NCBI GenBank assembly: GCA_977017645.1 | Contig: OZ360249.1 | Coordinates: forward strand, 35,340,001-35,404,000 | DNA: 64,000 bases | Direction: 5' to 3' | From: Torpedo marmorata | Lineage: Eukaryota | In this document: piece after piece, positions 1 to 64,000 of the stretch | How the letters are laid out: every line of letters starts with the position of its first letter | Numbering within the stretch: position 1 is the first letter of the stretch | Notes under the pieces: generated by a model | The model's database searches: none | Seen by the model: the letters and a program-made list of their open reading frames with translations, nothing else | Told to the model about the DNA's origin: nothing | Translations under genes and position numbers: made by a program

Positions 1-1
1 C

Positions 2-9790: not shown

Positions 9791-9881
9791 GGTTCAAGAT
9801 TGAATCCACTTTCATCAGATACTTGCAAGTAAACTACTAGTGTTAATTTTTGCTGCACACTGCTGAAAATCAGAAGAATAT

Positions 9882-10121
9882 GGGACAGCACGGTTAGCGT
9901 AGCGGTTAGCGCAACGCTATTACATCGCCAGCTACTCGTGTTCGAATCTGGCGCTATCTGTAAGGACTTTGTACGTTCTCCCCATGTCTACGTGGGTTTC
10001 CTCCGGGTGCCCTGGTTTCCTCCCACCCTCCAGAAACGTACGGGAGTTGAGGTATTTGGGCATTATGGGCTCGTGGGACGGACTAGCCTGTTAAAGGGCC
10101 TGTCTAAATTTTTAAAAAAAT
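9882..10121 (+). mobile_element. tRNA-derived V-SINE (HE1-like)
   Basis: tRNA-like head (ggttagcgtagcggttagcgc...gttcgaatc), V-domain (tgtaagga.tttgtacgttctcccc...gggtttcctccgggtgc...ggtttcctcccac) and AT-rich tail. Confidence 0.85.
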
Positions 10122-10530: not shown

Positions 10531-10878
10531 TATAGAATGGCTTTTTCAGCCAATGTACCCATACCCCCATCTACTATGCTCATCCACCCTTAGCCCCCAG
10601 GCTCTCTAGCAGTAGAAACTATTAGTGTTATTGAATGTTAAAAATATCAAATATTGATAGACATCCACTCTATTTTAGTTTTGTCAAAAATTGAGATTTT
10701 GTTTAGAAAAACAAATTCTGCAAATTAGTTTAATATTTAACACTAAAAATCACTTTTCTACAAGAAAGAACAGTTAAATCCAATAAATAATTCAATAAGC
10801 AACCTCCATTTTTTTTCCCCAGCACTTTTTTCTCTCGTTAATTTGAGTGGGACTGTTCTGATTTCACTGGGTTTAAAG

Positions 10879-11039
10879 CAGTGGTTTTCAACCTTTTTTC
10901 CCCACTCACATACCACCTTAAGTAATCTCTTACTAACCACAGAACACCTACGGCATCCTATGCCATAGGTGCTCTGTGGTTAGTAAGGAATTACTTAAGG
11001 TCGTATGTGAGTGGGGAAAAAAAAGGTTGAGAACCACTG
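10879..11039. mobile_element. Palindromic hAT (Charlie-like) MITE
   Basis: CAGTGGTTTTCAACC...GGTTGAGAACCACTG; the whole element is a near-perfect hairpin. The 8-bp TSD is not recognisable. Confidence 0.85.
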
Positions 11040-12671: not shown

Positions 12672-13482
12672 CAAGATTCAAGATTATTTTATTGTCATGT
12701 AATAAAAATTGGCTCTAGTCTGCCATAAGATTCACCATCAACAGAAATTGCCCCTTACAGTCAGAGAAAGAGAAGCAAAAGAGAGTCCTCCCAGAGTCAC
12801 TGAGTGTCCATAGATTTGCCTCCAGCACTCCCGCAGCCTACGCAGTCATACAGACCACTCCACACCATTGGCAACCCGAGCTCCTGATCCAAACCTCCGA
12901 CATGATCAGGAAGTCTTCAGCGCCCTTGGCACGCTCTCACATCCTGGGTCTGATATCTGGTACCCCGCTTCATCTAGACTTGAGCCAGTCTCCAGCATTC
13001 CGCAGCCTAGTGTGAATCCTTTGACCGCAGTCGCCAGCAGCCTGCGTGGGTTCCTCGCTTCGAGTCACCAACAGCCCGCTGCCTGTGTGTTCTTCAGCCG
13101 CAGAGCCCCTTACTGGTCCGCCACCATGGTCACCGTCCCATAAGGTCATCTCCTCTGCTTCTCCTTCTCAAATGGAGGGGAGGTAGTCTCCCCATTTTCT
13201 GGTGCCCTGTGCCAGTACTCTGCTTCCCCAGAGTCTGCAACTCCTCGAGGCTGCTGCCGAACACAGGCACCACCATCTTGAGCCCAGACTCCATGATCGC
13301 AGGATTTAAAATAAACCACCGTCCGTTCCTTTAACAGGCCGTTTAAAGCCTGTATGGAGTTGTCGGTAGTTGGACTTGGTGATAGAACCCTGTGGAGGAG
13401 CGCTGTGTCTCCGCTTCCTGCTGTCTGCATGTCCGCACCAGCGGCAGTGCTGCCGATGCAGCAGCTACGGCATGCTGCCATT
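12672..13482 (-). mobile_element. ~800-bp GC-rich non-autonomous retroelement (family D) with (AATCTTG)n tail
   Basis: Colinear with 27225-28060. The minus strand starts AAAATGGCAGCA and ends catgacaataaaa...aatcttgaatcttg. Confidence 0.7.
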
Positions 13483-15659: not shown

Positions 15660-16792
15660 ATTGTTAGAGTCTTGCACCCAGAATGGAGTATGGAAGTGGA
15701 CGTTTGTAATTCCAGAAGGGACCTTATCCAATTTAGTACAGCAACAGATACTCCTCAACACATTCACCCCAGTAGAATACCACAACGTAAAGGCACACTA
15801 AAGGTCACATTGCTTCCGTTGTAACAGCACTGATTTATCACAGCTTACAAACAAATAAAGAATATACACACTCGTTTCTTTCAGCTCATCATGAAGTCGA
15901 ATTTATTTTTTTATTATCAAATCACGACCTCCGCATGGAAAATAGAAGGATTGGCTTCTTCCCCTAGTCAACAGGAGCAAATGGAACTAGAACAATGAGT
16001 CCATGGGCAATTGGAACCTCTGGCGTTTTTTCAGCCAAGCTGTCACCGGCTCAGGCAAAGTATAATACGTTTGGTCGAGAACTCTTGCCCATCTATCTCA
16101 CAGTGAAACATTTCCGCTTTTGATTGGAAGGTCGTCCTTTCACCATTTATAGAGTAACTCACCATATAGAGACTCGGGGTCCTCCGGTGGTAGTGCAGGC
16201 TCGTAGAATCGTCTTAAAATCGCGAAATCGGAATTTGAGAATTTCCTACACCCGTTACATTTGGCCAGTTGCAACGTTTTTTAGGCATGATGAATTTTTA
16301 TCACCGATTCCTGCCAAATGCTGCAACATCTCTATTGCCCCTTACTGAACTACTAAAAGGATCTGATAAGTCCGTGTCCAGAAGACCATTAACTTTGGGA
16401 GATGATGCTGTACATGCTTTCAACGATGTGAAGACTGCGCTTGCGAATGTCACGATGCTTGTACATCAAAAGCCCAACGCCTTGCTCTCTCTTACCACAG
16501 ATGCATCTGTCAGTGCTGTGGGAGCAGTGTTAGAACAACGAGGCCGTTGGCCTGCGAATGGTAAGCCGCAGTGCGAATACGGGTAGTGCCCAGAAGATCA
16601 GTGAGAGCTTGGAACAACACCAACTCGAACTGAGATCCTCGATCCGTTGGCGGATCATGCCGACCTCATTACCGTCATATTATGTTGCTGCAGTGAAGAA
16701 AAGAGAGACTCTGGTGGAGAGTGAGGGAGTAGCCTCACTTTACCTAGCTGCATGGTGAAGTGTATCAGGCTGGGAAACATAGCAACGCCACA
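15660..16792 (+). mobile_element. Scrambled Gypsy remnant (RNase H, pre-RT and connection pieces, LTR-like sequence)
   Basis: PLAFFSAKLSPAQAKYNTFGRELL...FLLEGRPFTIY (~16015-16150); VTHHIETRGPPV (~16153-16200); LQRFLGMMNFYHRFLP...LTTDASVSAVGAVLEQ (16269-16540). Confidence 0.75.
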
Positions 16793-20810: not shown

Positions 20811-21286
20811 CAGTTAAAAAGTCAGGACTTGATAACAAAACAGCTGATATCATTTTGTCTTTCCAATTCTTGGATTTAATTTTATTCTCTATTTGTACCT
20901 TCCCCAGAGGCACCTCTGACTATTTACTGGCCTTCCCCATGTTCTTCATTTGGCATCACCATTGCTTATTCCATTTGATCTCTCCTGATCTTTACCTTAT
21001 CACTGTCCTCCCCCTTTCTTCCCTCCACTCCACCCAGCTTTCTCTGGAATTTCAAACTTGTTCAGCTTTTAACTTTGTTCAGAGTGATGAAAAGTCATTA
21101 ACGAATGAAACGTGAATTCCGTTCTTCTCTCTGCAGATGCTGCCAGACTGCTGCTATTTCCTGGTTTTATTTCAAATTTCCACCATTTTGAACTTGGGTT
21201 AGAGTTTTGGAAGAGGATCATCCCCAGTTTGAGAATCAACAGTATGATATTATCTCCTAGTTTATCAATTTTTTGTTCAAATAGAA

Positions 21287-21372
21287 CAGTGGTTCTCAAC
21301 CATTTTTCTTTCCACTCACATACCACTTTAAGTAATCCCTTACTAACCACAGAGCACCTATGGCATCCACTG
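21287..21372. mobile_element. Internally deleted hAT MITE (same family as 10879)
   Basis: Left half of the hairpin plus the terminal CCACTG only. Perfect 8-bp TSD AAATAGAA at 21279-21286 and 21373-21380. Confidence 0.88.
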
Positions 21373-25150: not shown

Positions 25151-26988
25151 CATTAAAACACCTGGCAGCCTCAAACAACTGGCAAAAAAATCGAGGAAAA
25201 TAAAGTTTAAAAATTAAAATAAATAAGAATAAAATAACAGGTAAAAAATATGTAAGTTTAAAATTGTAAAAGTAAATGTTATCTGAGGTAATACATAAAC
25301 CTTTGGTGAAGATGGGAATGGGAGCAAATATTCAGCTAGTGGATTGCCTTGGTTGTGCTTTGCTTGGAGCAGCTGTTTGAATAAATTTGTGTGAAACAGC
25401 ACTGGCATTGGTCAGGATGAAGAGCTCGAAAACAGCAATTCATACATACAGTTGCTCTTCATCGACTACAGCTCGGCCGTCAATACCATTATTCCCTCAG
25501 TGCTGGTCAAGAAGCTACAAACTCTAGGCCTCTGTACCCCCCTCTGCAACTGGATCCTTGACTTTCTCATCGGAAGACTACAGTCAGTACGAATTGGAAA
25601 CAACGTCTCGACCTCACTGATTATCAACACAAGCGCACCCCAAGGATGCATGCTTAGCCCACTGCTCTACTCGTTATACACCCATGACTGTGTGGCCAGG
25701 CACAATTCCAATGCCATCTACAAGTTTGCGGATGATACCACAGTTGTGGGCAGAATCACAAACGGCAATGAGGAAGCATACAGGAGGGAGATAGATCAGC
25801 TCATTGAATGGTGTAACGACAACAACATTGTACTCAATATCAGCAAAACCAAGGAGATGATTGTGGACTTCAGGAGGAAGTCAGGGGAACATGACCCAGT
25901 CCTCATTGAGGGCTCAGTAGTGGAGAGGGTCAAGAACTTCAAATACCTGGGTGTCAACATCTCTGAAGATCTGTCCTGGAGCCTCCACGTTGATGCAATC
26001 ACAAAGAAGTCTTGCCAGCGGCTATACTTTGTGAGGTGTCTGAGTAGATTCGGTATGTCACCGAAGACTCTCGTAAACTTCTACAGGTGCACCGTGGAGA
26101 GCATTCTGGCTGGTTGCATCACTGCCTGGTATGGAGGTTCCAACTCTCAGGACAAGAATAAACTCCAGAGTGTTGTTAACTCGGCCTGTGACATCACAGG
26201 CACCAGATTTTACTTCATCGAGGACATCTACTCGAGGCGGTGTCTTAAAAAAACAGCATCTGTCCTCAAAGACCTCCACCACCCAGGCCATGCCCTCTTC
26301 ACTCTGCTACCATTGGGAAAAAGGTACAGGAGCCTAAAGTCGAGCACTCAACGGCACAAGGACAGCTTCTTCCCCGCTGCCATCAGATTCCTGAATAATC
26401 AATGAACCAAAGACACTGCCTTACTTTTCGTGCACTATTATTAATATATTTTTTATATTAATGTCGTAAGATTGTAATAATATGAATGTTTTCACTATGA
26501 TGCTGCCGCAAAACACCGAATTTCATGACTTGTTCATGACAATAAACTCTGATTCTGATTCTGGTTGATGCCGCTCGCCATTGGGGTGTCTCACTTGAAG
26601 TGTCTCCTTATCCCTGCTTAGAAAGAGTCGCTCCAGTCAGAGGCTTTATCTGTAAACTTGGGGGAGGGGGGGGTGTTAGTTATCTATAATGTTATTGTTC
26701 ATCTTTCGAGTGGCTCCGTGGCGCGGGAGGAACCTGCAGATGCAGTGACGGTTAAATGTTTTCAAAGAATATGACTGAAAATAAAGTAAAGTGCTTTAAG
26801 GTTTATATATTCATGCAAGTGATGTTTGTTCAGTGTAAGTACAGTATAGTACTTTGTCTTTTAAACAGTTTATTCTCAATGCAAGTGTATTAGTTAGGCA
26901 TTGTAAGAGTAAGTCTCAAGCAACCATAAAATACACTTATCCGGTATCTACCAATCCCCATAAGTGCCGGATACCAGGGGTTTTACTG
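25151..26988. mobile_element. Tigger/pogo-like non-autonomous DNA transposon, interrupted by a LINE
   Basis: TA|CATTAAAACACCTGG ... CCGGATACCAGGGGTTTTACTG|TA. Both ends match the MITE at 62271-62492 in opposite orientation. Confidence 0.7.
25424..26563 (+). mobile_element. 5'-truncated Rex1/Babar LINE (family A)
   Basis: ORF 25452-26405: [37 protein letters not shown] and C-terminus. 3' tail aataaa(ctctgatt)n. Confidence 0.95.
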
Positions 26989-27224: not shown

Positions 27225-28060
27225 TAGATTCAAGATTCAAGATCAAGATTCAAGATTTAATTTATTGTCATAGTAATAAGACAGTGTCATATTCCATGAA
27301 ATTTCTTTTTGCCTGCTACAAGGCAGACAAATTCGCCACCGGCAGAAATTGCCGAAGCACCTCTTACATTCCTTACAGCAAAAGAGAGCCCCCCAGAGTC
27401 ACCGCATGTCCATATATTCGCCTCCAGCGCGTCCGCAGCCTCCACAGCCACACAGAGTCCAGTCCAAACCATCGGCAACCCGAGCTCCAGATCCGAACCT
27501 CCAACACGGTCAGGGCGCCCTCGGCACCCCCTCGCATCTCGGTTCCGATACCTGGTACTCCTCCAGCCAGTTCGAGCAAGCCTCCAGCAGTCCGCAGCCC
27601 GGCGTGAGTCCCCCGACATCAGTCTCCATCAGCCCACAGCCTCCGTGGGTTCCTCGCCTCGAGTCGCCAGCAGCCCGCCGCATGCACCGGTCCTTCAGCC
27701 TCAGAGCCCCTCACTGGTCCGCCACCGTGGTCACCGTCCCGTGGGACGTCTCCTCCGCTTCTCCTTCTCAGACTGGGGGTGATCTTTCCGTCCTATGGTG
27801 CCCTGCTCCAGTCCTCCGCTTCCCCGGAATCTGCAGCCCCTCGTGGCTGCCGCCGGTTAAAGGCGCTGCCATCTTGGGCGCAGACCCCGCGGTCGCGGGA
27901 TCTCAAATAAAACCACCGTCGGCTCCTTTAACGGGCCGTTCAAAGCTCGTGCGGAAACTACGGCAGTCGACTGGGCAGCTGGACCTCGCGGGAGCGCTGT
28001 ATCTCCGCTCCCACACTCCCCGCGTGTCCGCACCAGCGGCTCCGGCAATGCTGCCATTCT
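27225..28060 (-). mobile_element. ~830-bp GC/CpG-rich non-autonomous retroelement (family D), younger copy
   Basis: Colinear with 12672-13482. Tail (CAAGATT)n on the + strand, head ...GCTGCCATTC. Many CpGs retained. Confidence 0.75.
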
Positions 28061-29129: not shown

Positions 29130-30133
29130 GGCATAGAGTTATAACATGGGAACAACTTTTTGTGCTAATTCATCCACGCCGACCAAGGTGTTTTCCTGAG
29201 CTTGTCCTGTTTGCGTGTATTTGGTCCATATCCCTCAAAACCGTTTCTATCCAGTTACCTCTTCAAATATATATTGTTTAATGTTGTAATTGAACCTGCC
29301 TCCACCACACATGACACCTCATTGCATTTACCTACCATCCTCTTTTGTGGAAAACTTGTCCCTCAGGTCCCATTTAAATATTTCCCTCTCATCTGCTCTA
29401 TTTTTTGATCCCCCCCCCCCCCACTACCCTGAGAGAAAGTCCTATCTGTATGCCTCAAGATTTTATAAACCTCATCATCCTTTGCTCCAGAGTTATAATC
29501 CCAGCCAATCCAATCACTCCTTAATTCAAATACCCCAGATCCTGGCAACATCCTTTTGAATATTTTCTGCAACCTTCAGCATTATTGCAGCCATCCTATT
29601 GTATGGTAACCAGAATTGTACACAATATTTTGTGTGGTCTCACCAAAATCATGTACCGGTGTATTGCGATGTCCCAATTCTAGTTTCAGTGGCCTCTCTG
29701 ATGGAAGGAAGCATGTCACACACCTTCTTCACCACTGTGTTTGCCCGTGTTGTCACTTTCACAGATCTACGTACTTCCTTTAAATTTACAGCATGGTAAC
29801 AGGTCATTTCGGCCCAGGAGCCCATGGCGCCCAATTACACCGAATCAACCTACAACCCCCGGTACGTTTTGAATGGTGGAAGGAAAGCGGAGCACCTGGA
29901 GGAAACCCACACAGACATGAGGAGAACGTACAAACTTTTTACAGACAGTGCGGGAGTCGAACCCCAGTCCCGATCGCTGGCACTGTAACAGCGTTGCGCT
30001 AATGGCTACGCTAACCATGCCACCTTCCTTAGGTCTCTCTGTTCTATTACACTCCCAGGGTCTTGTCATTCACTGTGTGTCCTTCCCTAGTTCAACTTTC
30101 AAAAATGTATAACTTTACACTTGTCCAAGTTAA
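29130..30133 (-). mobile_element. Decayed CR1 3' fragment, split by a SINE
   Basis: catagag...ggtccatatccctc.aaacc...gaacctgcctccacc...cctggcaacatcctt...ccagaattgtacacaata is similar to 57955-58700. Confidence 0.65.
29779..30024 (-). mobile_element. tRNA-derived V-SINE
   Basis: Reverse complement of the SINE at 59699-59953 (tRNA head, V-domain, tail). Confidence 0.88.
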
Positions 30134-31027: not shown

Positions 31028-31236
31028 CGTGTAGTGCTACCACCAGGAGGAGTCAGAGACGAGTTGGTGTTGCATCTTGGGAAACCTGTTGCATCTTGGG
31101 TAAGAATCAAGATGGATGTCTCCACATGAGGTCCTGTTTGTGTGTGTTGTGTTCTTAGTGCTGTTTGCTTTAGTTCATCAATGTAGTTGTTCAAAAAGAA
31201 CCCAAGTTTCTTTATTGTAATAGAAGAAAAATCACA

Positions 31237-31251
31237 TGGTACCAGGAGTGG
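31237..31251 (+). promoter_or_regulatory. Primer-binding site, complementary to the 3' end of tRNA-Leu(UAA)
   Basis: TGGTACCAGGAGTGG directly after the LTR's CA. Vertebrate tRNA-Leu(UAA) ends ...CCACTCCTGGTA-CCA (from memory). Confidence 0.8.
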
Positions 31252-31354
31252 AAGAAACAGCCAAGAGTGGAAGAAACACCAGTGGTGTGCACAGGAGTGG
31301 AAGAAACACCAGGAGTGTGCAAAGTGTGTAACAGTCGATATCTGCTGAGAAAAT

Positions 31355-34300
31355 ATGGAGAGTTTAAAAGCTCCTGATGCTGTAAAATGGACTGGAAATG
31401 TCGACCATGAGTGGAGGTTGTTTAAAAAAAGATTCATGCTGTACCTGCAACCCATTGGAATCGATAGAAAACCGGATACACGGAAGATTGCACTGCTACT
31501 TACCGTGGCGGGACCTAAAGCTCTAGAGGTTTTCAACACATTTGTTTTTGCCGAGGTAGAAGACCAGAGCAAATTCGACAAGGTTATTGAGATGTTTGAT
31601 GAACACTGTTCACCAAAGAAAAATGAAACCTTCGAGAGGTACATGTTTTGCTCGCGCATGTAGCTGCAGGGAAAGAGCTTTGATACTTTTTTTAACAGAC
31701 TTAAAATTAAAAACAAGAACATGCAATTTTGGACCGCTGCAAGATTCAATGATCCGTGATCAAATTGTGTTCGGAACTATTGATAAGAAAGTGAGAGAGA
31801 GGTTGCTGCGAGAGGCAGAGCTTACCTTAGCTGGAGCTGTGAAGATATGCCACGCCAGTGAATTAGCTCTTCAGCACGCGAAAAAGTTTTGTGATATTGT
31901 AAAAGCCAGTGAAAATGAAGGCATAGTCGTAGCCACAGTATCTGGACATACACACAAACAAAATATGAGATATAGGAAATAACAAAAAGATGGAGAGACA
32001 TTCAATTGTAAACGATGTGGCACTAAACGTGCGCCAAAGCTATGCCCAGCCTATGAAAAAGTTTGTAATAAGTGAAAAGGGCAGAATCACTATGCAAAGC
32101 AATGTTTTTCCAAAGTGAAACAAGACAGAAGTAAAAGTTTACACACTATAGAAGAAACTGCTCTCAGTGATACACTTTTCGTGGGCACGGTAATGCAAGA
32201 AGTGAACAGTGTCGAGCAGGATAAGTGGACTGTGTCATTGCATACAAATGGAACAAATATTCCTTTCAAGCTGGACACAGGGGCAAAGGTCAATTTGATC
32301 TGTGAGTGCGACATCAGGGCAATGAAGATAAAGCCATACATCCATGCAAATCCTGTACTGCTGAAAGCCTACAATGGACAGAGCATCAACACGAAAGGTA
32401 CATGTAAACTCAAGGTGAAAGTTAAAGATAAAGAGCACCACCTCAGGTTCACAGTAGTCCCAGATGGACTACTTGGTGACAAAGCATGTGAAAACTTAAG
32501 CCTAGTCGAGAGGGTGTACAACATTAACAGTGACAATACACAGAACAGCTTAGAGGAAATACTGGATCAATTTCCAGACATCTTCAAGGGGTTTGGAGTC
32601 CTACCATTCACCTATAAGACACAGTTAAAGGAGGACGCACAGCCAGTAGTACATGCCCCGAGGCGAGTTCCAGCGGCACTAAAAGAAAAGCTCAAGCAGG
32701 AACTCGACCGAATGATGGCACTGGGGGTCATAAAGAAAGTGGAGCAGCCCACAGAATGGGTGAATTCAATGGTGTGTGCCAAAAAGAAGAACGGTGACCT
32801 ACGCGTGTGCATGGACCCAAAAGACTTGAATGCCAATATAAAGAGGGAACATTATCAGATTCCGACCAGGGATGAAATTACAAGTGAGATGGCTGGTGCA
32901 AAGTTTTTCACTAAATTGGATGCATCCCAGGGCTTCTGGCAAAGAAAACTGCATGAAGATAGCACACAATACTGTACATTTAATACACCGTTTGGCCAAT
33001 ACTTCTGGCTGAGTATGCCTTTTGGAATTTCCTCAGTTCCGGAATTGTTCCATAGGACAATGGAGCACATCATAGAAGGCATAAATGGGGTATGTGTGTA
33101 CATGGATGACATGATCCTATGGAACAACACAACAAGAGGCTCATCAAAGTGCTACAACGCATCCAGAAGTACGGATTAAAGTTAAACAGAGAAAAATGTC
33201 AGTTTGGTGTGAAGGAAATCACCTTTCTGGGAGATAAACTGTCAGAGGCAGGTGTGGAGCCAGACAAGAGCAAGGTGAAAGCAATTTTAGAGATGCCCAG
33301 ACCCATTGACAAAAAAGGCGTATTGAGAGTGCTGGGAATGATCAATTTCATTGGTAAATTCATACCAAACCTGTCTTCCAAAGCAATGGACCTAAGGAAG
33401 TTGTTACAGGACAAATGTGAAATCAAGTGGACAGACAACCACGAGGAAGAATGGGGACGACTGAAGACCATTCTAACTACAGAACCAGTGCTTTTGACAT
33501 TCTTTGACACATCAAGAAGGACAAAAATATCTACAGACGCTTCAAAAGATGGAATAGGTGCCGTACTACTTCAGGCTGTGGGAGAAGATTGGAGGCCAGT
33601 AGCATACGCATCAAGGACGATGACAACATCTGAATATCAATATGCACAGATCGAGAAAGAGTGTCTTGGTCTGGTCTATGGACTCGAGAAATTTGACAGT
33701 TATGTGTATGGTCTACCAACATTCGTGGCAGAGACAGACCACAAGCCATTAATAGCGATAATCAAGAAAAATCTCAGTGAAATGTCACCGAGAATCCAAA
33801 GACTGATGATGAAGCTACATCGTTATGACTTTGAATTGGTGCACACACCAGGGAAACTTATTGTGTTAGCTGATGCGTTATCCAGGGCAACGACGCAGAG
33901 TGAAGCACACAATGAGAGTTCCACAGAGACAGATGTGAATCTCCACGTGAATCTGATCACTGAATCTCCTCCCGTATCTGACATGAAATCCAAGCAGATC
34001 GCAGCTGAAGCAGAAAAGGACACAGTTCTACAGAAGGTTATCAAGAATCTGAATGAAGGATGGCCTAGAGGTGAATGTCAGCCATACTACAACATCAGAG
34101 CTGAGCTGAGTGTTGTCAATGAGCTTCTACTCAGAAATCATATTTATCATGAAATAAAGGAGTTCACCAAGGATTGAGGTTACCAGAGAAATGGTTAAAC
34201 ATTCATTCCAACACTCTGCAAATATGGGCGCCATATTTTCCAAAATATATGGTATCTATTCCTTAAGCTATATGTAATTTTCTCAAGTGGTATACAACTA

Positions 34301-35769
34301 TGAATTTTCGCATTCCATCTCTCCATTCCTAAGTCTGTATCTGATTTCCAAGTTATAGCAATACATTTCCTAGATACTGCTAAGGCAATTTTTACAAACT
34401 TTATTTGATACATATTTAATTTTAATTAAAGAATTCTGGAAAAGGACTCTCTTGACAATCTCTGGTCTTTCTTCTTACATCTTGTATCTTTTTTATTCTT
34501 TCTTCCTTCTTTCTTTGGGCTTTAGGGGGAGGGGGTGGGGGGAGTGGGATATATATATATATATCACATGTATAATGGATTAGACTATTTTAAAGATTTG
34601 TATTGTAAATTCTATTTGGTGGTTAAAAAATTAAAAAAATATATTAAAAAAAAGAGCTTCTACTCAGACAGAGCAGAATTATCATTCCTCAATCACTGCG
34701 ACAAAAGATGTTGAAAAGGGTGCATGAGGGGCACCTTGGAATGGAGAAATGAAAGAGGAGGGCCAGAACTGCTGTTTATTGGCCATGGATAAATGCTGAC
34801 ATTGACAGAATCATTTCAAGCTGTGAGACCTGTTTGAAACATCATGCAAAGCAGGCAAAGGAACCCATGATAATAACTGACGTACCAGCAGAACCATGGC
34901 AGAAGGTTGGGACTGATCTGTTCTACATGGATGGAAATAATTACTTGCTGGTTATTGATTATCTATCGAACTATCCGGAGATACCGCTGCTTCCTAGCAT
35001 ATCTGCTGCTTGTGTGATCAAATATATGAACTCGATTTTTGCAAGACATGGAATGCCTCAAATTGTCTACAGTGACAATGGACCATGCTACAGCTGTAGA
35101 GAAATCCGGAACTTTGCAGAAGAGTATGATTTTCGACATGTGACTTCAAGTCCTCTGCATTCACAGTCAAACGGTAAAGCAGAGAAAGAAGTGCATATAG
35201 TTAAACAGTTGCTCAAGAAAGCACAAGACAGTGGCTCAGACCCGTATCTAGCTCTATTGAGTTACAGAGCTTCGCCACTTGAACATGGCATGTCACCCGT
35301 CGAGCTTCTGATGGGACGTAGACTATGCACCGCACTTCCCTACTCTGCAGACCCAAACAAGAACAGAGATGTCGAAGATGCCAAATGGAAACAAAAGCGT
35401 CTGCAAGGGAGACAAAAAGCAGACTATGACAAGTCAGCGAGAAGCATAGGGCCACTGGCACAACATGACACAGTGAGACTCAGAGATTCCAACACTTGGG
35501 ACAAAAAGGTTACTGTTCTGGAGGAAGTAAATCCAAGATCCTACACTGTCAGAACAGAGGATGGTCAAATACTGAGGAGGAATCTAAAGAGCCTGCTGAA
35601 AATGCAAGAGATACTGCAGGAACAGACAGATGCAGAAGATGCAGCCTGCACAGCAACAGAGGAAACACCACCAGTGCTCGACAGTAGTAGACCAGCAGAG
35701 CCGACACAAGCACCTGTGTTAAGAAGATCCACACGTGTTATCAAAGCACCTGACAGACTGAATCTCTAA
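31355..35769 (+). pseudogene. gag-pol: Gypsy gag-pol with frameshifts, stops and an L1 insertion
   Basis: Gag (MESLKAP...KIALLLTVAG, RDQIVFG) with a degenerate double Cys/His knuckle at ~32005-32105; protease FKLDTGA; RT (LRVCMDP, KLDASQGFWQ, YMDD); RNase H (TDASKDGIGAVLLQ, YAQIEKE); integrase (PWQKVGTDLF, SDNGP, QSNGKAE), ending APDRLNL*. Confidence 0.93.
34136..34653 (+). mobile_element. 5'-inverted (twin-primed) L1/Tx1 insertion inside the Gypsy pol
   Basis: 15-bp TSD GAGCTTCTACTCAGA at 34121-34135 and 34654-34668. ORF2 C-terminus on the minus strand (34195-34413); 3' UTR and A-rich tail on the plus strand (~34430-34653). Confidence 0.9.
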
Positions 35770-36013
35770 AAGAAAAAGAACTGCACACTTAAAAAGTTTG
35801 TGTTGCTGATGTTGTGTTTAGGTTTGTGTTGAACTTTAAATTGAAATGAATACTGTATTAATGTGTCATGTTAGATTAAACATCTCAAAGAAAGGGGATG
35901 TAGCGATAGAGTGCTACCACCAGGAGGAGTCGGAGACGAGTTGGTGTTGCATCTTGGGAAACCTGTTGCATCTTAGGTAGAATCAAGATGGATGACTCCA
36001 CATGAGGTCCTGT

Positions 36014-36170: not shown

Positions 36171-36829
36171 GGAAAATAAAGTCTGTACTTCAAAGTTGAT
36201 GGCATTCCATTCACTGAGACTGAAAATCATCAGAAAATGAAGCTACAACCTTCTCAATGGTTAGAAAAAAATACATCTATGAATTAAGTGGGTTCTTGAA
36301 TACTAATTTCACCTCAACAAGACTGACAAATAGCAATCAGGTTAATGACCAGAATCATCTATCCTGCCAATGCTGGTTCAGACACTAATGACTTGAAGTG
36401 AACAAAGCACTCTCTTCATCAAATTGCACCATGGGATCCTTTGCTTCAAATAACAGCTTCTCGGACAGTGCAGCTGTTCTTCAGTAGTACATGGAAGTGT
36501 CAGCCGAGATTATGCTCTCGAATCCACAGAGATCCCCCAATCTCTTACATTCAAGCCTCAGAAGTGAACCAACGATGACACAAAATTAAAAGCCTTTCAT
36601 TGGCAGTTTTCAGATCTCGGAGTGATAAAACTTCTTTCCTTACTTGCAAAATGGGACTACACAAAACATTGGCAAAAAATCTTTTAATGATGCATTTTTT
36701 TCTTGATTTCTTTGTGGATTTGCATGTCATTAATAGTGCTCATCCCGATATTTCTTATTTCATTTGGATGATGATTAGGAGTCAGTCGCATGACTGTGCA
36801 TCTGAAGTCACATTTTGGACAGGCTACAT

Positions 36830-36979
36830 CAGTGGTTCTCAACCTTTTTTCCACTCACATGCCACCTTAAGTAATCCCTTACTAACCACAGAGCACCTAT
36901 GGCATAGGCTGTGCTCTGTGGTCAGTAAGTGATTACTTAAGGTGGTATGTGAGTGGAAAGAAAACAGTCGAGACCCCTG
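36830..36979. mobile_element. Palindromic hAT MITE
   Basis: CAGTGGTTCTCAACC...GAGACCCCTG; degenerate TSD GGCTACAT / GGCAAGAT. Confidence 0.85.
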
Positions 36980-50830: not shown

Positions 50831-51418
50831 ATCAGAATCAGAATCAGAGTCAGAATTTATTGTCATGAACAAGTCATGAAATTCGGTGTTTTGCAGCAGC
50901 ATCATAGTGCAATTAACATTCATATTAACAATCTAACGACATTACTATAAAAAATTATAAACAATAGTGCACGAAAAGTAAGGCAGTGTCTTTGGTTCAT
51001 TGATTATTCAGGAATCTGATGGCAGCGGGGAAGTAGCTGTCCTTGTGCCGTTGAGTGCTCGTCTTTAGGCTCCTGTACCTTTTTCCCGATGGAAGCAGAG
51101 TGAAGAGGGCATGGCCTGGGTGGTGGGGGTCTTTGAGGATAGAGGCTGCTTTTTTAAGACACCGCCTCATGTAGCTGTCCTCGATGGAGTGAAGTTTGGT
51201 GCCTGTGATGTCGCAGGCCGAGTTAACAACCTTCTGGAGTTTACTCTTGTCCTGGGAGTTGGCGCCTCCATACCAGGCAGTGATGCAACCAGCCAGAATG
51301 CTCTCCACTGTACACCTGTAGAAGTTTACGAGAGTCTTTGGTGACATACCGAATCTCCGCAAACACCTCACAAAGTATAGCCGCTGACGAGCCTTCTTTG
51401 TGATTGCATCCACGTGGA
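50831..51418 (-). mobile_element. 5'-truncated Rex1/Babar LINE (family A)
   Basis: ORF 50997-51413 and an (ATCAGA)n tail on the + strand. Confidence 0.93.
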
Positions 51419-51589
51419 TATGGATAATGTTGACATTAGACCATCATGTGAAATGTATGTTGACCTTCTGCCTTAGAGGAAGAGACAGACTATCAAAGGA
51501 TATTATTTCTCATTGAAAACGCAAAATTATGGAGATGCACAGCAAGCCAATTCAACCCATCATGTCCAGGATTAATATAGGATCTACCG

Positions 51590-56110: not shown

Positions 56111-57432
56111 TCAGAATCAGAATCAGAATTTATTGTCATGAACAAGTCATGAAATTCGGTGTTTTGCGGCAGCATCACAGTGCAATTAACATTCATATTA
56201 ACCATCTAACGACATTACTATAAAAAAAATTATAAACAATAGTGCACGAAAAGTAAGGCAGTGTCTTTGGTTCATTGATTATTCAGGAATCTGATGGCAG
56301 CGGGGAAGAAGCTGTCCTTGTGCCGTTGAGTGCTCGTCTTTAGGCTCCTGTACCTTTTTCCCGATGGAAGCAGAGTGAAGAGGGTGGTGGGGGTCTTTGA
56401 GGATAGAGGCTGCTTTTTTAAGACACCGCCTCATGTAGATGTCCTCGATGGAGTGAAGTTTGGTGCCTGTGATGTCACAGGCCGAGTTAACAACCTTCTG
56501 GAGTTTACTCTTGTCCTGGGAGTTGGCGCCTCCATACCAGGCAGTGATGCAACCAGCCAGAATGCTCTCCACGGTACACCTGTAGAAGTTTACGAGAGTC
56601 TTTGGTGACATACCGAATCTCCGCAAACACCTTACAAAGTATAGCTGCTGACGAGCCTTCTTTGTGATTGCATCCACATGGATGCTCCAGGACAGATCCT
56701 CGGAGATGTTGACACCCAGGAATTTGATATTCTTGACCCTCTCCACTACTGAGCCCTCGATGAGGACTGGGTCATGTTCCCCTAACTTCCTCCTGAAGTC
56801 CACAATCATCTCCTTGGTTTTGCTGACGTTGAGCTCAAGGTTGTTGCCATTACACCATTCAACGAGCTGATCTATCTCCCTCCTGTACGCTTCCTCATTG
56901 CCGTTTTTTATTCTGCCGACAACTGTGGTGTCATCGGCAAACTTGTATATGGCATTGAAATTGTGCCTGGCCACACAGTCATGAGTGTATAACGAGTAGA
57001 GCAGTGGACTAAGCACGTATCCTTGGGGTGCGTCTGTGTTGATAATCAGTGAGGACGAGACGTTGTTTCCAATTCGTACTGACTGTGGTCTTCCGATGAG
57101 AAAGTCAAGGGACCAGTTGCAGAGGGGGGTACAGAGGCCTAGAGTTTGTAGCTTCTTGACCAGCACTGAGGGAATAATGGTATTGAAGGCCGAGCTGTAG
57201 TCGATGAAGAGCAACCGTATGTATGAATTGCTGTTTTCGAGGTGGTCCAGAGCTGAGTGGAGAGCCAGCGATATTGCATCTGCTGTGGAGCGATTGTGGC
57301 GATAGGCGAATTGCAGTGGGTCCAGATCTTTGCTTAGGTATGTGTTAATTCTGGCCATGATCAGCCTCTCAAAGCATTTCATCACAGTAGAAGTTAGTGC
57401 TACTGGGCGGTAGTCGTTGAGGCAGCTCACAC
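56111..57432 (-). mobile_element. 5'-truncated Rex1/Babar LINE (family A)
   Basis: ORF 56279-57430 covers the whole RT ([37 protein letters not shown]). A short deletion near 56380 causes a frameshift. (ATCAGA)n tail. Confidence 0.95.
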
Positions 57433-57723
57433 TACTCTACTCCAACTGCTTGTCACCGGTTAAGTCCACAGGACCTGATTTTGAGTGTGTGGTAAATTCA
57501 ATAAGAATTTGCAGATGTACTGCCTCACTGAGCAAGTGGCTGTCAGGTGAGTTAGGCTCTTCAAGTACAAATCAGAATGATTTCTTTCAGAAAATAAGTG
57601 AACTATTTCAGTACATTGATATCATTTGCAGTAAGCACAACATGTTTTTGAGGATGGGCTAACTTTCACTCAATGATCACAAATCTTTCTAAAAATGGGT
57701 TTCCTCATCTCATGTACAAGTTC

Positions 57724-57890
57724 AGAGTAGCACGGTTAGCGTAGCTGTTAGTGCAATGCTATTACAGTACCAGCGACCCGGGTTCAAATCCGATGTTGTC
57801 TGTAAGGAGTTTCTATGTTCTCCCTGTGTCTGCGTGTTTTTTTTTGGGTGCTCTGGTTTCTTCCCACCCTTCAAAAACGTACGGGGTTCC
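57724..57890 (+). mobile_element. V-SINE, 3'-truncated
   Basis: tRNA head plus V-domain. Confidence 0.8.
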
Positions 57891-57945: not shown

Positions 57946-59015
57946 TGATATAACCATATATAACCATATAACATTTACAGCACAGAAACAGGCCAGTTCG
58001 GCCCTTCTAGTCCATGCCGAACACATTCTCCCACCTAGTCCCACTGACCAGCTCCCGGCCCATAACCCTCCACACATCTCTCGTCCATATACCTATCCAA
58101 CTTTTCCTTAAACATTAAAATTGAACCTGCATCTACCACTTCGGCCGGAAGCTCGTTCCACCCTCCTACCACCCTCTGAGTGAAGAAATTCCCCCTCATG
58201 TTTCCTCTAAACTTTTCCCCCTTCAATCTCAATCCATGCCCTCTTGTTTGAATCTTCCCCTCTCTCAATGGAAAAAGCCTGTCCACATTGACTCTATCTT
58301 TCCACTTCATAATTTTAAATACCTCTATCAAATCACCCCTCAACCTTCTACGCTCCAGGGAATAAAGTCCCAGCCTGTTAAACCTTTCCCTATAAATCAA
58401 ACCCAGAAATCCAGGCAACATTCTTGTAAATCTCCTCTGCACTCTCTCTATTCTGTTTATATCCTTCCTGTAATTCGGTGACCAAAACTGCACACAATAT
58501 TCCAAATTTGGCCTCACCAATGCCTTATACAACTTCAACATGACATCCCAACTCCTATATTCAATACTCTGATTTATGAAGGCCAACATACCAAATGCCT
58601 TCTTCACCACCCTATCTACGTGTGACTCAACTTTCAGGGAATTATGTACCAGATTCCTAAATCCCTCTGTTCTACTGCACTTCTCAATTATCTTCCATTT
58701 AACATGTATGACCTTTGCTGATTAATCCTACCAAAATGTAGCACCTCAAATTTATCAGTATTAAATTCCATCTGCCATGTTTCCGCCCACTCTTCTAACT
58801 GTCCAATATCCCCCTGCAAGCTTTGATATCCCTCTTCACTGTCCACAACACCACCAATCTTTGTATTATCTGCATACTTACTAATCCAATTTACCACCCT
58901 ATCATCTAGATCATTAATATATATGACAAACAACAATGGACCCAGTACTGATCCCTGAGGCACTCCACTAGTCACCGGACTCCAATTTGACAAACAATTT
59001 TCCACCAGTACTCTC
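57946..59015 (-). mobile_element. 5'-truncated CR1 LINE (HER1-like)
   Basis: ORFs with SGVPQGSVLGPLLFVIYINDL, KYADNTKIGG, LYKALVRPNLEYCVQFWSP, LERRRLRGDLIEVFKI, TRGH and FFTQRVV. (ATAACCAT)n tail on the + strand. Confidence 0.95.
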
Positions 59016-59070
59016 TCAAGGTTACAGACTAAATCACGGACCGTCTTAGGATGCAGCCTACTGAACACTA

Positions 59071-59365: not shown

Positions 59366-59698
59366 TAGGTCAGTGTATTCCAATTGTTAAACATCAGCTA
59401 CTACAATTACATGTTTGCCTCTTCAGACTTGACTGGGATAATGCATGGGGAACTTAACAGACCCAAGTGTGGATTTGTCCAGCAATTCCAATAATACCAT
59501 GACAGATAATTCAATGATTCAAATTCCTCTAACAAGTAGGAATGCAAAACCACTGTGCAGGTAAATACTGCTCATAGAGAAGCCCACGGGCTTCTCTGCT
59601 ATTAGTCTGGACATAAACATGGAGAGCCAAGGAAAAGCAACATCCAGATTAATCCTTATGCTTTTGGAGAACTGGTAATTTTTTACCCAAGAATAAAA

Positions 59699-59953
59699 GG
59701 CGGCACGGTTAGTGCAGCGGTTAGCGCAACACTGTTACAGCGTCAGTGATCGGGACCGGGGTTTGAATCCCACGCTGTCTGTAAGGAGTTGGTATGTTCT
59801 CCCCGTGTCTGTGTGGGTTTTCCCCGGGGGCTCCGGTTTCCTCCCACCGTTCAAAATGTACTGGGGGATGTAGGTTAATTGGGTGTAATTGGGTGGGAGG
59901 GCTAGTGGGCCGAAATGGGCTGTTACCGTGCTGTATGTCTAAATTTTTTAAAA
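59699..59953 (+). mobile_element. Full-length V-SINE inserted in the left palindrome arm only
   Basis: GGCGGCACGGTTAG tRNA head, V-domain and tail. The right arm is contiguous at ~63531-63535. Confidence 0.9.
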
Positions 59954-60424
59954 TGTGGCAGATAAAAAGCCTCTTAGCCCATGTATATGTCAGGTATTTC
60001 AAATAACTATCCAAAGATTCCCCAAACCCAACAAGTTTCCATTTTTCAGTGTATATCCAATTCCCTTTTGAATCCCTTCTGTTCTGCCTCACACCATATT
60101 TTCAGGCAAAGTAGTCAAAATCATTACACCCGTCACACTGCTTCAAACTTAATTCACTTTTTGATCTGCTGATGTTGAAGAAATTACTCTATATAATTGC
60201 CAAACCACAAAAGCAAATGTTTATAATTAATGACAGTTAGCGACTGCAGTACAGTACGCATGAGTGGATAGGATCATTGTCCAAGTCTGCCTGAGACTTT
60301 ACTTCTGGAGTAAACCGGTGATTGCCTGCTCATCAAATTAGGTTAGCAATCACTCTGTGAAGGGCTGAACTATGTGGAAAGGGAGAGAGCCTCAGTGATA
60401 GTGATGAGAATATTAAGTGTTGAA

Positions 60425-60570
60425 TGTTGAATGTTAGAGTGTTGAATGTTAGAGGCGCTTAGGCAATTTCTGCCAGTGGCGAATCTGTCTGCCTTGCAGC
60501 AGGCAAAAATAAATTTCATGGAATATGACACTGTCTTATTACTATGACAATAAATTGAATCTTGAATCTT
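60425..60570 (+). mobile_element. Family D 3' tail fragment inserted in the left arm only
   Basis: ggcaatttctgccagtggcgaat...actatgacaataaattgaatcttgaatctt matches the reverse of 27235-27365. Preceded by short duplications of the target (tgttgaa)x3. The right arm reads ggatgatcatcttcaacac without it. Confidence 0.85.
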
Positions 60571-61552
60571 GATCATCCATTATGCTTAAATTTCTTAGAA
60601 GTGTGCTCAAAATTTACTTCCAAAATTGCAGAGAGAAAATGCAGAAAATTCAATATTCTGTATTTTATCAACTTGTCAAAAGGGGGTGATTGGCAAACAA
60701 TCAAGGCTCTCCACTGGCATGTAATATTTATTGGATGTTGAATTGGACACGTAAAAAAAAAGCACTTGCTGAAAATAACCATATTGAAGCACGAAAGCCG
60801 AGAAAATAGACAACAGCGCCCATTTTTGAGCATGGAGATTCCATTTAGCCTGGAGTAGACACTTTTAGTTGAAATCGTGCCAATCAGAAAATTGGACTGG
60901 GCACTTCTGACCATTGATCCATGTGAATGTGTTTGACTTTTCCCAGGTTCAAATAATCATTAGTTGATTTTATTATTCATAATGTCTATTTTGGAGCTCA
61001 AAGCTCCACATTACAATTGTGGTGGGAAAACCTCAGTGTCATTATGATACTAGTTTTATAGCAGCTATTCACTCATTATATGAGTTTGTGATTTTTTTTA
61101 CTATGTTAAGAGTTAACATTAATATCAGATGATGGGCTAATTGGACACTCCCCAAAGTGCAACAACTAAAGGGGAGTGCTTTCTTTTATCTGTCACAATG
61201 CTCATCCAATGGATGCTTCATGGCTAACACAATTGCAAGTGACAATATATCCTTGGGTAACCACCTGCTTTTAAGCAGGGTCATTTGATGGCAAGTAAAA
61301 ACATGCCCATCAATGAAGAGCCTATTCTTGCATTGTGCCTTGGTCTTTCTGATATATTCACTGGCTTAGTTCATTCCAAATCTGTCATCATTGAGATACC
61401 TCAAATCCTGCTCTGCAAAGCCACCAGCACATGAACGAATGAATCTCTGGAACAATTAGTTCAACAGCTTGCTACAACATCTCTAAAATTCCTCATGAGC
61501 GGCACCTCACATGAAGAACACAGACTCCAAGGATCGCCAATGTTCTGGTGTA

Positions 61553-61709
61553 TGGTTTGACCAAAATGTACACAAATACCCTTTAATAAAATCTGGAATA
61601 TGCACTTTAATCACATGTGAATTGTTTGATTGCAAAGTTAAAACAGTGGAGCCAGGGGCAAATAAAGGAAAAAAATGTGTCTTTGTCTCAAACGTTATTG
61701 AGGGCACTG
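61553..61709 (-). mobile_element. Tc1/mariner TIR fragment next to the palindrome apex
   Basis: The minus strand begins TA|CAGTGCCCTCAATAACGTTTGAGACA..., a typical Tc1 long-TIR start. The other end is missing. Confidence 0.75.
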
Positions 61710-62270
61710 TATATCGGAGTGATTAACACATCACTTTATACACCAGAAGAGTGGAGATGCTTGGAGTCTGTGTTCTTCTTGTGAGGTGGCACTCATGAGG
61801 AATTTTAGAGATGTTGTAGCAAGCTGTTGAACTAATTGTTCCAGAGATTCATTCATTCATGTGCTGGTGGCCTTGCAGAGCAGGATTTGATGAGGGATCT
61901 TCATGCATTTTCTGGCCTCCACCATCTCATTATTAATAAGAGTTAAGGCACGAGAGTGTGTTTGAAGGTCTTTCACAGAATTCCAGGTATCTCAATGACG
62001 ACAGGTATGGAAAAACTAAGCCTGTGAATCCATCAGAAAGACCAAGGCATAATGCGAGAATAGGCTCCTCATTGTTGGACACGTTTTACTTCCTGTCCAA
62101 GGAGCCCGTTTTATACCAGCTGGTGAGCCAAGGATATATTGTCTCTTCCAGTAGTGTTAGCCATGAAACATCCATTGGATGAGCATTGTGACAGATAATT
62201 TCTGAAGAAAGCACTCCCCTTTAGTTGTTGCACTTTGGGGAGTTTCCAATTCGCCCATCATCTCTTGATA

Positions 62271-62492
62271 CAGTAAAACCCCTGGTATCTGGCACCTATG
62301 GGGATTGTTAGATGGCGGACAAGTGAATTTTCCGGTTGCTTGAGGTTGTGTGTTGCGTGGATTGGCGAACTAACAGCAAGGCGTGCCAATTGTAAACTTC
62401 CATATTTTTTACCTATTTATTTTCTGCAATTTTTTTGCTGGTTGCTTGAGGCTGCCGGTTGCTTTAATTCCAGATAACAGGGGTTTTTACTT
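62271..62492. mobile_element. Tigger/pogo-like MITE in the right arm only
   Basis: TA|CAGTAAAACCCCTGGTATCTGG ... CCAGATAACAGGGGTTTTTACTT|TA. The left arm has the empty site (taacattaatatcagatgatggg, ~61113-61136). Confidence 0.88.
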
Positions 62493-63586
62493 TATTAATG
62501 TTAATCCTTAAAATAGTAAAAAAAAATCAGCAAACTCATATAATGAGTGAATAACCTATAAAACTAGTATCATAATCGCTCTGGGACTCTCCCACCATAA
62601 TTTTAGTGTGGAGCTTTGATCTCCAAAATAGACATTATGAATAATGAAATCAACTCATGAATGTCTGACCCTGGGAAAAGATGAACACATTCACATCGAT
62701 CATGGTTAGAAGTGCCCAGTCCAATTTTCTGATTGGCACAATTTCAACTGGAAGTGTCTACTCCAGGCTAAATGGAATCTCCATGCAATTTTTGCTCAAA
62801 AATGGGAGCTGTTGTCTATTTTCTCGACTTTCGTGCTTCATTATGGTTATTTTCAGCAAGTGCTTTTTTTTTTACAAGTGTCCAATTCAACATCCAATAA
62901 ATATTACATGCCAGTGGAGAGCCTTGATTTTTTGCCAATCACCCCCTTTTGACAAGTTGATAAAATACAGAATATTGAATTTGCAGCATTTTCTCTCTGC
63001 AGTTTTGGAAGTAAATTTTGAGCACGCTTCTAAGAAATTTAAGCATAACGGATGATCATCTTCAACACTTAATATTCTCATCACTATCACTGAGGCTCTC
63101 TCCCTTTGCTCATAGTTCAGCCCTTCACAGAGTGATTGCAACATCATTTGATGAGCAGGCAATCACCAGTTTACCCCAGAAAATAAAGTCTCAGGCAGAC
63201 TTGGACAATGATCCTATCCACTCATGCGTACTGTACTGCAGTCGCTAACTGTCATTAATTATAAACATTTGCTTTTGTGGTTTGGCAATTATATAGAGTA
63301 ATTTCTTCAACATCAGCAGATCAAAAAAGGAATTAAGTTTGAAGCAGTGTGATGGGTGTAATGATTTTGACTACTTTGCCTGAAAATATGGTGTGAGGCA
63401 GAACAGAAGGGATTCAAAAGGGAATTGGATATACACTGAAAAATGGAAACTTGTTGGGTTTGGGGAATCTTTGCATAGTTATTTCAAAGAGCTGATACAG
63501 ACATGGGCTAGGTGGCATTTTTTCTGCCACATTGTGTTGATGTAAAAATTCACCTGTTCTCCAAGAGCTTAAGGATTACTCTAAAT

Positions 63587-63960
63587 CAGTGGTTTTCAAA
63601 CTTTTCTTTCCACTCACATACCACTTTAAGTAATCCCTATGCCGTAGGTGCTCTGTCATTAGTAAGGGATTACTTAAGGAGGTATGCGAGTGGAAAGAAA
63701 AAGTTTGAAAACCACTGTTTTAATCGTACATAATTTACTCGTTATGTGCACGGTTTCATAACTCCAAAGGAAATGGGCCAATGACAATTTTTCTCAAGCA
63801 AAATATTTCAGTAACAATTGGGTCTAGAGCAGTGGTTCTCAACCTTTTTTTCCCACTCACAAACCACCTTAAGTAATCCCTTAATAATCACAGTGCACTT
63901 ATGGCATAGGGATTACTTAAGGTGGTATGTGAGTGGAAAGAAAAAGTTTGAAAACCACTG
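63587..63960. mobile_element. Composite hAT element: two palindromic MITEs (63587-63717 and 63830-63960) around a 112-bp passenger
   Basis: A single perfect 8-bp TSD CTCTAAAT (63579-63586, 63961-63968) flanks the whole unit. Confidence 0.9.
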
Positions 63961-64000
63961 CTCTAAATGGTGCTTTTTCTTGTTTCTCCATGTTTATGTT

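What the first reader, a model, noticed from the sequence alone, without database searches (positions are those of the whole stretch)
60013..60300. Mosaic arm identity: near-perfect blocks within a diverged palindrome
Seen, by eye: 60013-60300 vs ~63184-63472 differ at only about 2-3 positions in ~290 nt. 61400-61500 vs 61790-61890 are also nearly identical. In contrast, 59610-60000 and 60920-61390 show frequent mismatches and indels (roughly 80-88%). One neutral duplication predicts uniform divergence. Inference: arm-to-arm gene conversion tracts (as in sex-chromosome palindromes), purifying selection on a conserved element in both arms, or selection for base pairing.
Basis: partly seen in the sequence, partly recalled or inferred. 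Interest (0 to 1): 0.75.

Follow-up and report, generated by a model that had tools for sequence, protein, structure and literature searches.

The report
Patchy gene conversion between palindrome arms
An old inverted duplication of apparently non-coding DNA in a fish-like genome has arms made nearly identical in patches, most likely because one arm was copied onto the other in this lineage: a known process, seen here in a small non-coding palindrome.

Summary
The mosaic is real. 60013-60300 vs 63472-63185 differ at 3 of 288 columns and 60920-61400 at 59 of 477; homogeneity is rejected (0 of 20,000 permutations). The proper unit is a wider zone, 60012-60864 (20 of 709); the 288-nt block does not stand out inside it (255 of 2,000). 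Contigs of two relatives separate the rivals. Distant organism B has the same arm-spacer-arm layout, so the duplication predates that split. Yet over 62940-63323 the window's arms differ at 12 of 383 sites while B's two copies differ from the window at 27 of 372 and 30 of 359. B's arms share no 31-mer across 110 nt where the window's arms are identical. Close organism A differs in the block at about the rate seen outside it (at least 4 of 265 vs 9 of 729). The block is therefore neither a strongly conserved element nor an assembly artefact, and there is no G-U bias (24:24). Best reading: lineage-specific arm-to-arm gene conversion in a ~2-kb-arm, 184-nt-spacer non-coding palindrome. Known process, new instance; no function shown.

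The parts
59611..61553 (+). Left arm of the inverted duplication (outer end open: homology reaches the window end on the right)
61554..61737 (.). 184-nt spacer; 61554-~61711 is the end of a high-copy repeat ending CACTG/TA (Tc1-like inverted-repeat end, label recalled), then ~26 nt unique
   Evidence: sequence; contig depth 10^4-10^5 over 61554-61689 and family loose ends before 61560
61738..63999 (-). Right arm, reverse complement of the left arm; truncated by the window end
60012..60864 (+). Homogenised zone, left copy (20 mismatches in 709 columns)
   Evidence: scan statistic 0 of 2,000; BIC segment
62752..63473 (-). Homogenised zone, right copy; its inner edge matches the point where organism A's arm contigs merge (both end at 62781 = 62752+29)
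60013..60300 (+).
61401..61499 (+). Inner near-identical block (2 of 99), partner 61792-61890; only marginally significant
   Evidence: not shared at the 31-mer level in organism B (record 9)
59697..59948 (+). SINE present in the left arm only (V-SINE/HE1-like, label recalled)
   Evidence: matches 9874-10118, 29779-30026, 57730-57886; absent from right arm
60425..60563 (-). 139-nt repeat fragment inserted in the left arm inside the homogenised zone; no sign of it in organisms A or B
   Evidence: 93.9% match to 27241-27371; records 8, 13, 14 run across R 63060 unbroken
61891..61985 (.). 95 nt present in the right arm only; by contig geometry present in both arms of organism B, so a deletion from the left arm shared by the window and organism A
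   Evidence: (record 2 joint, record 9)
62271..62492 (.). High-copy MITE with terminal inverted repeats and TA target duplication, right arm only; also in organism B's right arm
   Evidence: (records 9, 12; depth about 5x10^5)
63142..63153 (+). Small perfect hairpin (5-bp stem) created in the right arm by a double change at 63143 and 63145; candidate template-switch mutation
63587..63960 (.). hAT-like insertion (label recalled) with an 8-bp target duplication (63579 and 63961), right arm only; contains two self-complementary MITE-like units

Best explanation
A single-locus stretch of non-coding DNA was duplicated in inverted orientation long ago, with a short spacer. Shown: the layout is shared with organism B, 7-12% divergent. 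Since then each arm has picked up its own substitutions and transposon insertions, but parts were overwritten by non-reciprocal copying from the other arm (gene conversion). Inferred: break repair using the folded-back arm or the sister chromatid as template; short events could be replication template switches. Most homogenisation of 60012-60864 / 62752-63473 happened after the split from B and before or around the split from close organism A, as several tracts rather than one. Once a zone is near-identical it stays the preferred substrate, and the more diverged, insertion-flanked parts escape (inferred from general knowledge of homology-dependent recombination). No function is needed to explain the mosaic.
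For: (1) The duplication predates B: one 1,676-nt contig holds right arm, spacer and left arm (record 9; geometry). (2) Paralogs closer than orthologs in 62940-63323: 12 of 383 vs 27 of 372 (P = 0.013) and 30 of 359 (P = 0.002). (3) B's arms are two contigs over 62940-63323; all 31-mers of a Logan contig file are distinct, so they differ at 4 or more sites in 63184-63293, where the window's arms differ at 0 of 109; chance at 1% divergence 0.0012. (4) Organism A differs from the window at 4 or more of 265 block sites where both window arms and B agree, vs 9 of 729 outside (Fisher P = 0.75). (5) Changes on both arms in one lineage: an extra C after 63451 in 2 of 2 B contigs there, absent from both window arms and from A's contig; A-only changes at 62790 and 62807 on a contig of depth 24.9, vs 21.8 expected if on both arms and 15.6-17.2 if on one. 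(6) A carries a mosaic haplotype within 30 nt: left-type 63139, right-type 63143/63145, left-type 63168.
Against: Only two relatives, one sample each, as simplified contigs; 226 rows of the difference table were hidden and the lay could not be repeated. Logan contigs drop small bubbles, and the depth of A's long merged contig (19.3) fits its own changes lying on one arm only (19.2 expected), so continued conversion in the main block after the A split is not shown; the inner site 61801 is also ambiguous (22.7 observed; 22.1 if one arm, 28.5 if both). The tool warns that depth is no copy number. A 1-nt indel at 63139 is shared by the window's arms and B's arms, so the zone was not overwritten in one piece. 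B is somewhat less diverged in the zone (27/372, 30/359) than in 62362-62953 (67/574; P = 0.026 and 0.12), which could be mild constraint. A faster-evolving B lineage would weaken points 2 and 3. No GC-bias test was possible.
Confidence: 0.8

Rival explanations
1. The block is a conserved non-coding element (for example an enhancer) kept in both arms by purifying selection, with no exchange between arms.
For: Homeodomain-like TAAT motifs lie in the block (sequence; reading recalled, untested). B is somewhat less diverged in the zone than in 62362-62953 (P = 0.026, 0.12). With generous confidence bounds the A test gives P = 0.13. The indel at 63139 persists in both B and the window.
Against: It needs 7- to 12-fold constraint, predicting 0.28-0.48 differences to A in 265 nt; 4 or more seen (P = 0.0002-0.0015). 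B's arms differ at 4 or more of 110 sites in the window's perfect run. B holds about 8 of 104 sampled words in all, while a block 1% from the window would give about 19 from the block alone (P = 0.023). A change on both B arms (63451) needs exchange or a repeated event.
Confidence: 0.08
2. The arms are transcribed and selected to pair as a long double-stranded RNA (hairpin siRNA source, editing substrate or splicing element); conversion supplies the matching changes and selection keeps them.
For: The palindrome has survived with a 184-nt spacer across three lineages, although such structures are described as unstable (PMC1803023, Discussion read). Long inverted repeats can yield hairpin RNAs (PMC8728187, passages).
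Against: No G-U over A-C excess on either strand (24:24 overall; 8:8 in 59949-60919). Five arm-specific insertions or deletions of 95-374 nt are tolerated, one inside the zone. In B the arms are not homogenised. No Rfam match at gathering score; sub-threshold matches lie only in the self-complementary insertion. No host gene was recognised in the window (by eye only).
Confidence: 0.07
3. Assembly or polishing artefact: reads from one arm overwrote the other in the window's assembly.
For: No reads of the window's own organism were available, so its base calls were not checked directly.
Against: Independent data from organism A merge the arms over the same zone (one contig over 62931-63449; another over about 62751-62876) and keep them apart where the window's arms diverge, branching at the window's own differences 61855, 62204 and 62751.
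Confidence: 0.03
4. The arms are the long terminal inverted repeats of a foldback-type transposon, and the mosaic reflects a repeat family rather than one locus.
For: Long arms, short spacer, transposon end in the spacer.
Against: Arm contigs lie at one- to two-locus depth (about 7-50) in both relatives, against 10^4-10^5 for the true repeats in the same stretch; no other copy in the window; no Pfam match in 12 of 12 frames. The outer ends could not be seen.
Confidence: 0.02

Closest known systems
Arm-to-arm gene conversion in mammalian Y/X palindromes (e.g. human P6; PMC3723533, passages read)
   Same: Inverted arms with a unique spacer; arms more alike than orthologs; lower between-species divergence in converted parts is also reported there.
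   Different: P6 arms are about 100 kb and over 99.9% identical along their length; here arms are about 2 kb, 92.9% overall, patchy, carry private transposon insertions, hold no recognised gene, and sex linkage is unknown.
Conserved inverted repeats of Caenorhabditis (PMC1803023; abstract and Discussion read)
   Same: Similar geometry (2,207-bp arms, 126-bp spacer at one locus there); structure outlives sequence; conversion proposed.
   Different: There the arms stay about 99.7% identical and join paralogous gene pairs; here homogenisation is partial, lineage-specific (absent in organism B over most of the arm) and no flanking paralogs were found.
Long inverted repeats as hairpin-RNA loci (LIRBase, PMC8728187; passages read)
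   Same: Long arms with a short loop; 4,590,178 such repeats are catalogued in 208 vertebrate genomes, so the structure itself is common.
   Different: No transcript or small RNA evidence here; no pairing bias.
Interlocus gene conversion between segmental duplicates (general knowledge; search listing only)
   Same: Mosaic of high- and low-identity tracts between old duplicates.
   Different: Very short distance and inverted orientation allow intramolecular fold-back templating.

Membership tests
Palindrome under arm-to-arm gene conversion (concerted evolution) | Two inverted copies flanking a unique spacer at one locus | tested here: met
   single-locus depth
Palindrome under arm-to-arm gene conversion (concerted evolution) | Duplication older than the species split used for comparison | tested here: met
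   record 9 of organism B holds both arms and the spacer
Palindrome under arm-to-arm gene conversion (concerted evolution) | Paralogous arms more alike than orthologous arms | tested here: met
   12/383 vs 27/372 and 30/359 in 62940-63323; one outgroup sample only
Palindrome under arm-to-arm gene conversion (concerted evolution) | Lineage-specific changes present on both arms | tested here: inconclusive
   favoured at 63451 (B) and 62790/62807 (A); not resolved at 61801 or in the main block of A
Palindrome under arm-to-arm gene conversion (concerted evolution) | GC-biased fixation in converted tracts | not testable with these tools
   most outgroup differences hidden; block GC 0.375 vs 0.364 outside is uninformative
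Sex-chromosome ampliconic palindrome | Arms of many kilobases at over 99% identity | tested here: not met
   about 2 kb visible, 92.9% over 1455 columns; full length not visible
Sex-chromosome ampliconic palindrome | Sex linkage and testis genes in the arms | not testable with these tools
   no genome held; no Pfam match in the arms
Conserved non-coding element | Much lower between-species divergence than flanking neutral DNA | tested here: not met
   A: at least 4/265 vs 9/729; B: 7-8% vs 11.7%, at most mild
Hairpin-RNA / dsRNA locus | Excess of G-U over A-C mismatches on one strand | tested here: not met
   24:24
Hairpin-RNA / dsRNA locus | Transcript across both arms, small RNAs or editing | not testable with these tools
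   no RNA run was offered
Foldback-type transposon | Dispersed multicopy family | tested here: not met
   one- to two-locus depth in both relatives
Foldback-type transposon | Target-site duplication at the outer ends | not testable with these tools
   right arm runs off the window

The most novel reading that the evidence does not exclude
The palindrome is kept by selection as a structure: after its arms had drifted several percent apart, about 700 nt were re-perfected in one lineage and retained because they form a functional long double-stranded RNA or DNA fold-back. That would be a vertebrate hairpin locus switched back on by conversion between diverged arms, present in one lineage and decayed in its sister.
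Probability: 0.07. Interest if true: 0.65.

Novelty: new member of a known kind. Interest (0 to 1): 0.3.

Why it matters
It is a compact, datable natural record of gene conversion between diverged inverted arms outside mammalian sex chromosomes: insertions, an outgroup with unconverted arms and a close relative bracket the events. It also warns that high arm-to-arm identity should not be read as conservation. If the re-perfected zone proved to be a transcribed hairpin, it would show conversion creating lineage-specific double-stranded RNA loci; nothing here shows that.

Tried and rejected
Structured RNA within the block alone: folding z = 0.68, 152 of 200 shuffles fold as well. Rfam: 0 matches at gathering score in the window; 9 sub-threshold miRNA-model matches, all in the self-complementary insertion 63597-63978. 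No RNA holder listed (no evidence either way). Organism A has no cover at 63458-63579 (proves nothing). A 22-nt word of the block had 0 matches in metagenome and viral contigs. Own genome not held. Earlier findings: nothing by sequence or place. Depth test of site 61801 and of A's long contig: inconclusive. One single conversion tract: rejected by the persisting indel at 63139. Six paper searches listed no study of such a locus in cartilaginous fishes; the library lacks most subscription papers and no supplements were read, so this does not show absence from print.

Full report
Setting. The window is repeat-rich DNA of about 39% GC with LINE-, SINE- and LTR-like repeats. I read nearly all of it by eye (31101-35699 only as ORF translations) and recognised no cellular gene; this was not tested by a scan outside the arms. 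The repeat types recall a ray or shark genome; that label is from memory. No whole genome is held.

Anatomy. Self-comparison finds an inverted duplication with left arm 59611-61553, spacer 61554-61737 and right arm 61738-63999. Homology reaches the last bases of the window, so the true arms may be longer. The core aligns over 1455 columns with 104 mismatches and 17 gaps. Each arm has private indels: on the left a SINE (59697-59948) and a 139-nt repeat fragment (60425-60563); on the right 95 nt (61891-61985), a MITE with TA duplication (62271-62492) and a 374-nt element with an 8-bp duplication (63587-63960). The spacer is mostly the end of a high-copy repeat.

The observation. Homogeneous spacing is rejected: 0 of 20,000 permutations for the 288-column minimum and for dispersion, 8 of 20,000 after merging events within 3 nt, but 3,468 of 20,000 after merging within 10 nt. 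Segmentation prefers three segments, 11/51, 21/720 and 72/684. The low zone 60012-60864 (20 of 709) is significant (0 of 2,000); the 288-nt block within it is not (255 of 2,000), and the inner block is marginal (59 of 2,000).

Not coding, not a known RNA, no pairing bias. No Pfam family in 12 of 12 frames, no Rfam match at gathering score, block folding z = 0.68. Transition mismatches would read as G-U in 24 and A-C in 24 cases on the plus strand, so neither strand is favoured for pairing.

Relatives. A search with 62500-63535 (104 words) listed 5 runs: organism A (share 0.45) and four runs of one sample of organism B (0.08). I laid 4 of the 5 on the right arm plus spacer, 61554-63579, at 80% likeness, so that both arms of each relative fall on one reference. 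Arm contigs lie at depths of about 7-50 against 10^4-10^5 for the embedded repeats: a single locus. Logan contigs come from a k = 31 graph after simplification, all 31-mers in a file are distinct, and depth is a mean over k-mers (bioRxiv 10.1101/2024.07.30.605881, passages). That small bubbles are dropped is stated by the tool; how their depth is handled I did not see.

Organism B (7-12% divergent). One 1,676-nt contig runs right arm (with the MITE), spacer, left arm, and its lengths and depth sums place the left arm out to about 62910-62950. The palindrome therefore predates this split, and B's arms share no 31-mer from the spacer to about 62923, including the inner block. Over 62940-63323 B has two contigs at single-locus depth (10.7, 10.6; record 9 is 11.2) that differ from the window's right arm at 27 of 372 and 30 of 359 letters; the window's arms differ there at 12 of 383 (P = 0.013, 0.002). 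Being unbroken, the two contigs must differ at 4 or more sites in 63184-63293, where the window's arms differ at 0 of 109; at 1% divergence this has probability 0.0012, at 3% 0.054. An extra C after 63451 is in 2 of 2 B contigs and in neither window arm nor A's contig. B's word share is that of about 7.5% uniform divergence (9.3 of 104 expected), not of a conserved block.

Organism A (about 1.2% divergent). Right-arm contigs differ from the window at 6 of 410 and 3 of 319. A's arms are separate contigs where the window's arms diverge and branch at the window's own differences (61855, 62204, 62751); they merge over about 62751-62876 and 62931-63449. This independent match rules against an assembly artefact. 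In the block A differs at 63188, 63199, 63319 and 63402, where both window arms and B agree: at least 4 of 265, no lower than outside (P = 0.75), against 0.28-0.48 expected under the constraint needed to explain 3 of 288 (P = 0.0002-0.0015; with generous bounds 0.13). Whether these four lie on both arms is open: depth 19.3 fits one arm (19.2). A-only changes at 62790 and 62807 lie on a contig of depth 24.9, nearer both arms (21.8) than one (15.6-17.2); 61801 is ambiguous. A also has a haplotype that mixes left and right states within 30 nt (63139-63168); the right-type part is a double change that perfects a 5-bp hairpin, so a repeated template-switch mutation is an alternative to a micro-conversion.

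Against a simple story. The 1-nt indel at 63139 separates the arms in both B and the window, so the zone is a patchwork and not one tract. B is somewhat less diverged in the zone than in 62362-62953 (P = 0.026 and 0.12); mild constraint is possible, although lower between-species divergence in converted arms is also reported for human palindrome P6 (PMC3723533, passages). A faster B lineage would inflate the B contrasts; the A test does not depend on it. Only 40 of 266 difference rows were visible.

How it most likely works. Shown: old inverted duplication, lineage-specific near-identity, no strong constraint, no pairing bias. Inferred: non-reciprocal copying between arms 0.2-3.5 kb apart during break repair or replication, several tracts, mostly between the B and A splits; later a 139-nt insertion landed in the left copy of the zone (absent from A and B). 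B's left arm aligns only in patches over 62500-62920 while its right arm aligns continuously, which hints at right-to-left copying there (weak). How the duplication arose is unknown; the left arm abuts the interior of a transposon remnant, which fits either a fold-back origin or a later central deletion (inference).

Comparison and verdict. It works like palindrome conversion on mammalian sex chromosomes but is not a member of that class by size, identity or known content. Its geometry is nearest the nematode inverted repeats of PMC1803023 (abstract and Discussion), which stay homogenised and join gene pairs. Long inverted repeats are very common in vertebrate genomes (PMC8728187, passages). 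PMC3176832 (passages) concerned short Drosophila repeats and added nothing. Six searches listed no account of such a locus in this group; no supplements were read. New member of a known kind; interest 0.3. The boldest open reading, a re-perfected functional hairpin, I put at 0.07.

Noticed in passing
window 31033-36013: LTR retrotransposon-like element on the plus strand with terminal repeats 31033-31137 and 35910-36013 (96% alike) and a gag/pol-like reading frame broken into several ORFs; family label (Ty3/gypsy) recalled, not scanned.
   Followed up: no
window 1-1600 and 15950-16590: Two further decayed fragments with reverse-transcriptase/RNase H-like translations (labels recalled).
   Followed up: no
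window 9004-9790, 25425-26563, 50836-51419, 56111-57436: Four 5'-truncated copies of one LINE family, 92-96% alike, in both orientations.
   Followed up: no
window 57950-59040: 3' part of a CR1-like LINE on the minus strand just left of the palindrome (label recalled).
   Followed up: no
window 10868-11039, 21282-21366, 36824-36964, 63587-63960: Family of self-complementary MITE-like units; the two in 63587-63960 sit inside one 8-bp target duplication and give sub-threshold matches to miRNA models.
   Followed up: partly
window 63139-63168: Four arm differences within 30 nt whose combinations in the window, A and B do not fit one tree; two of them together perfect a small hairpin.
   Followed up: partly
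window 62618 and 62686: Single sites in the diverged part where both window arms agree but one arm of A and B's right arm carry another base: possible micro-conversions or parallel changes.
   Followed up: no
window 63449-63579: Organism A's merged contig runs on unlike the window for 14 letters after 63449 and there is no cover beyond 63457, a possible rearrangement at the zone's outer edge.
   Followed up: no
window 12774-13445 and 27241-28040: Two copies (75% alike) of a GC-richer retroelement-like family whose end supplied the 139-nt insertion in the left arm.
   Followed up: no
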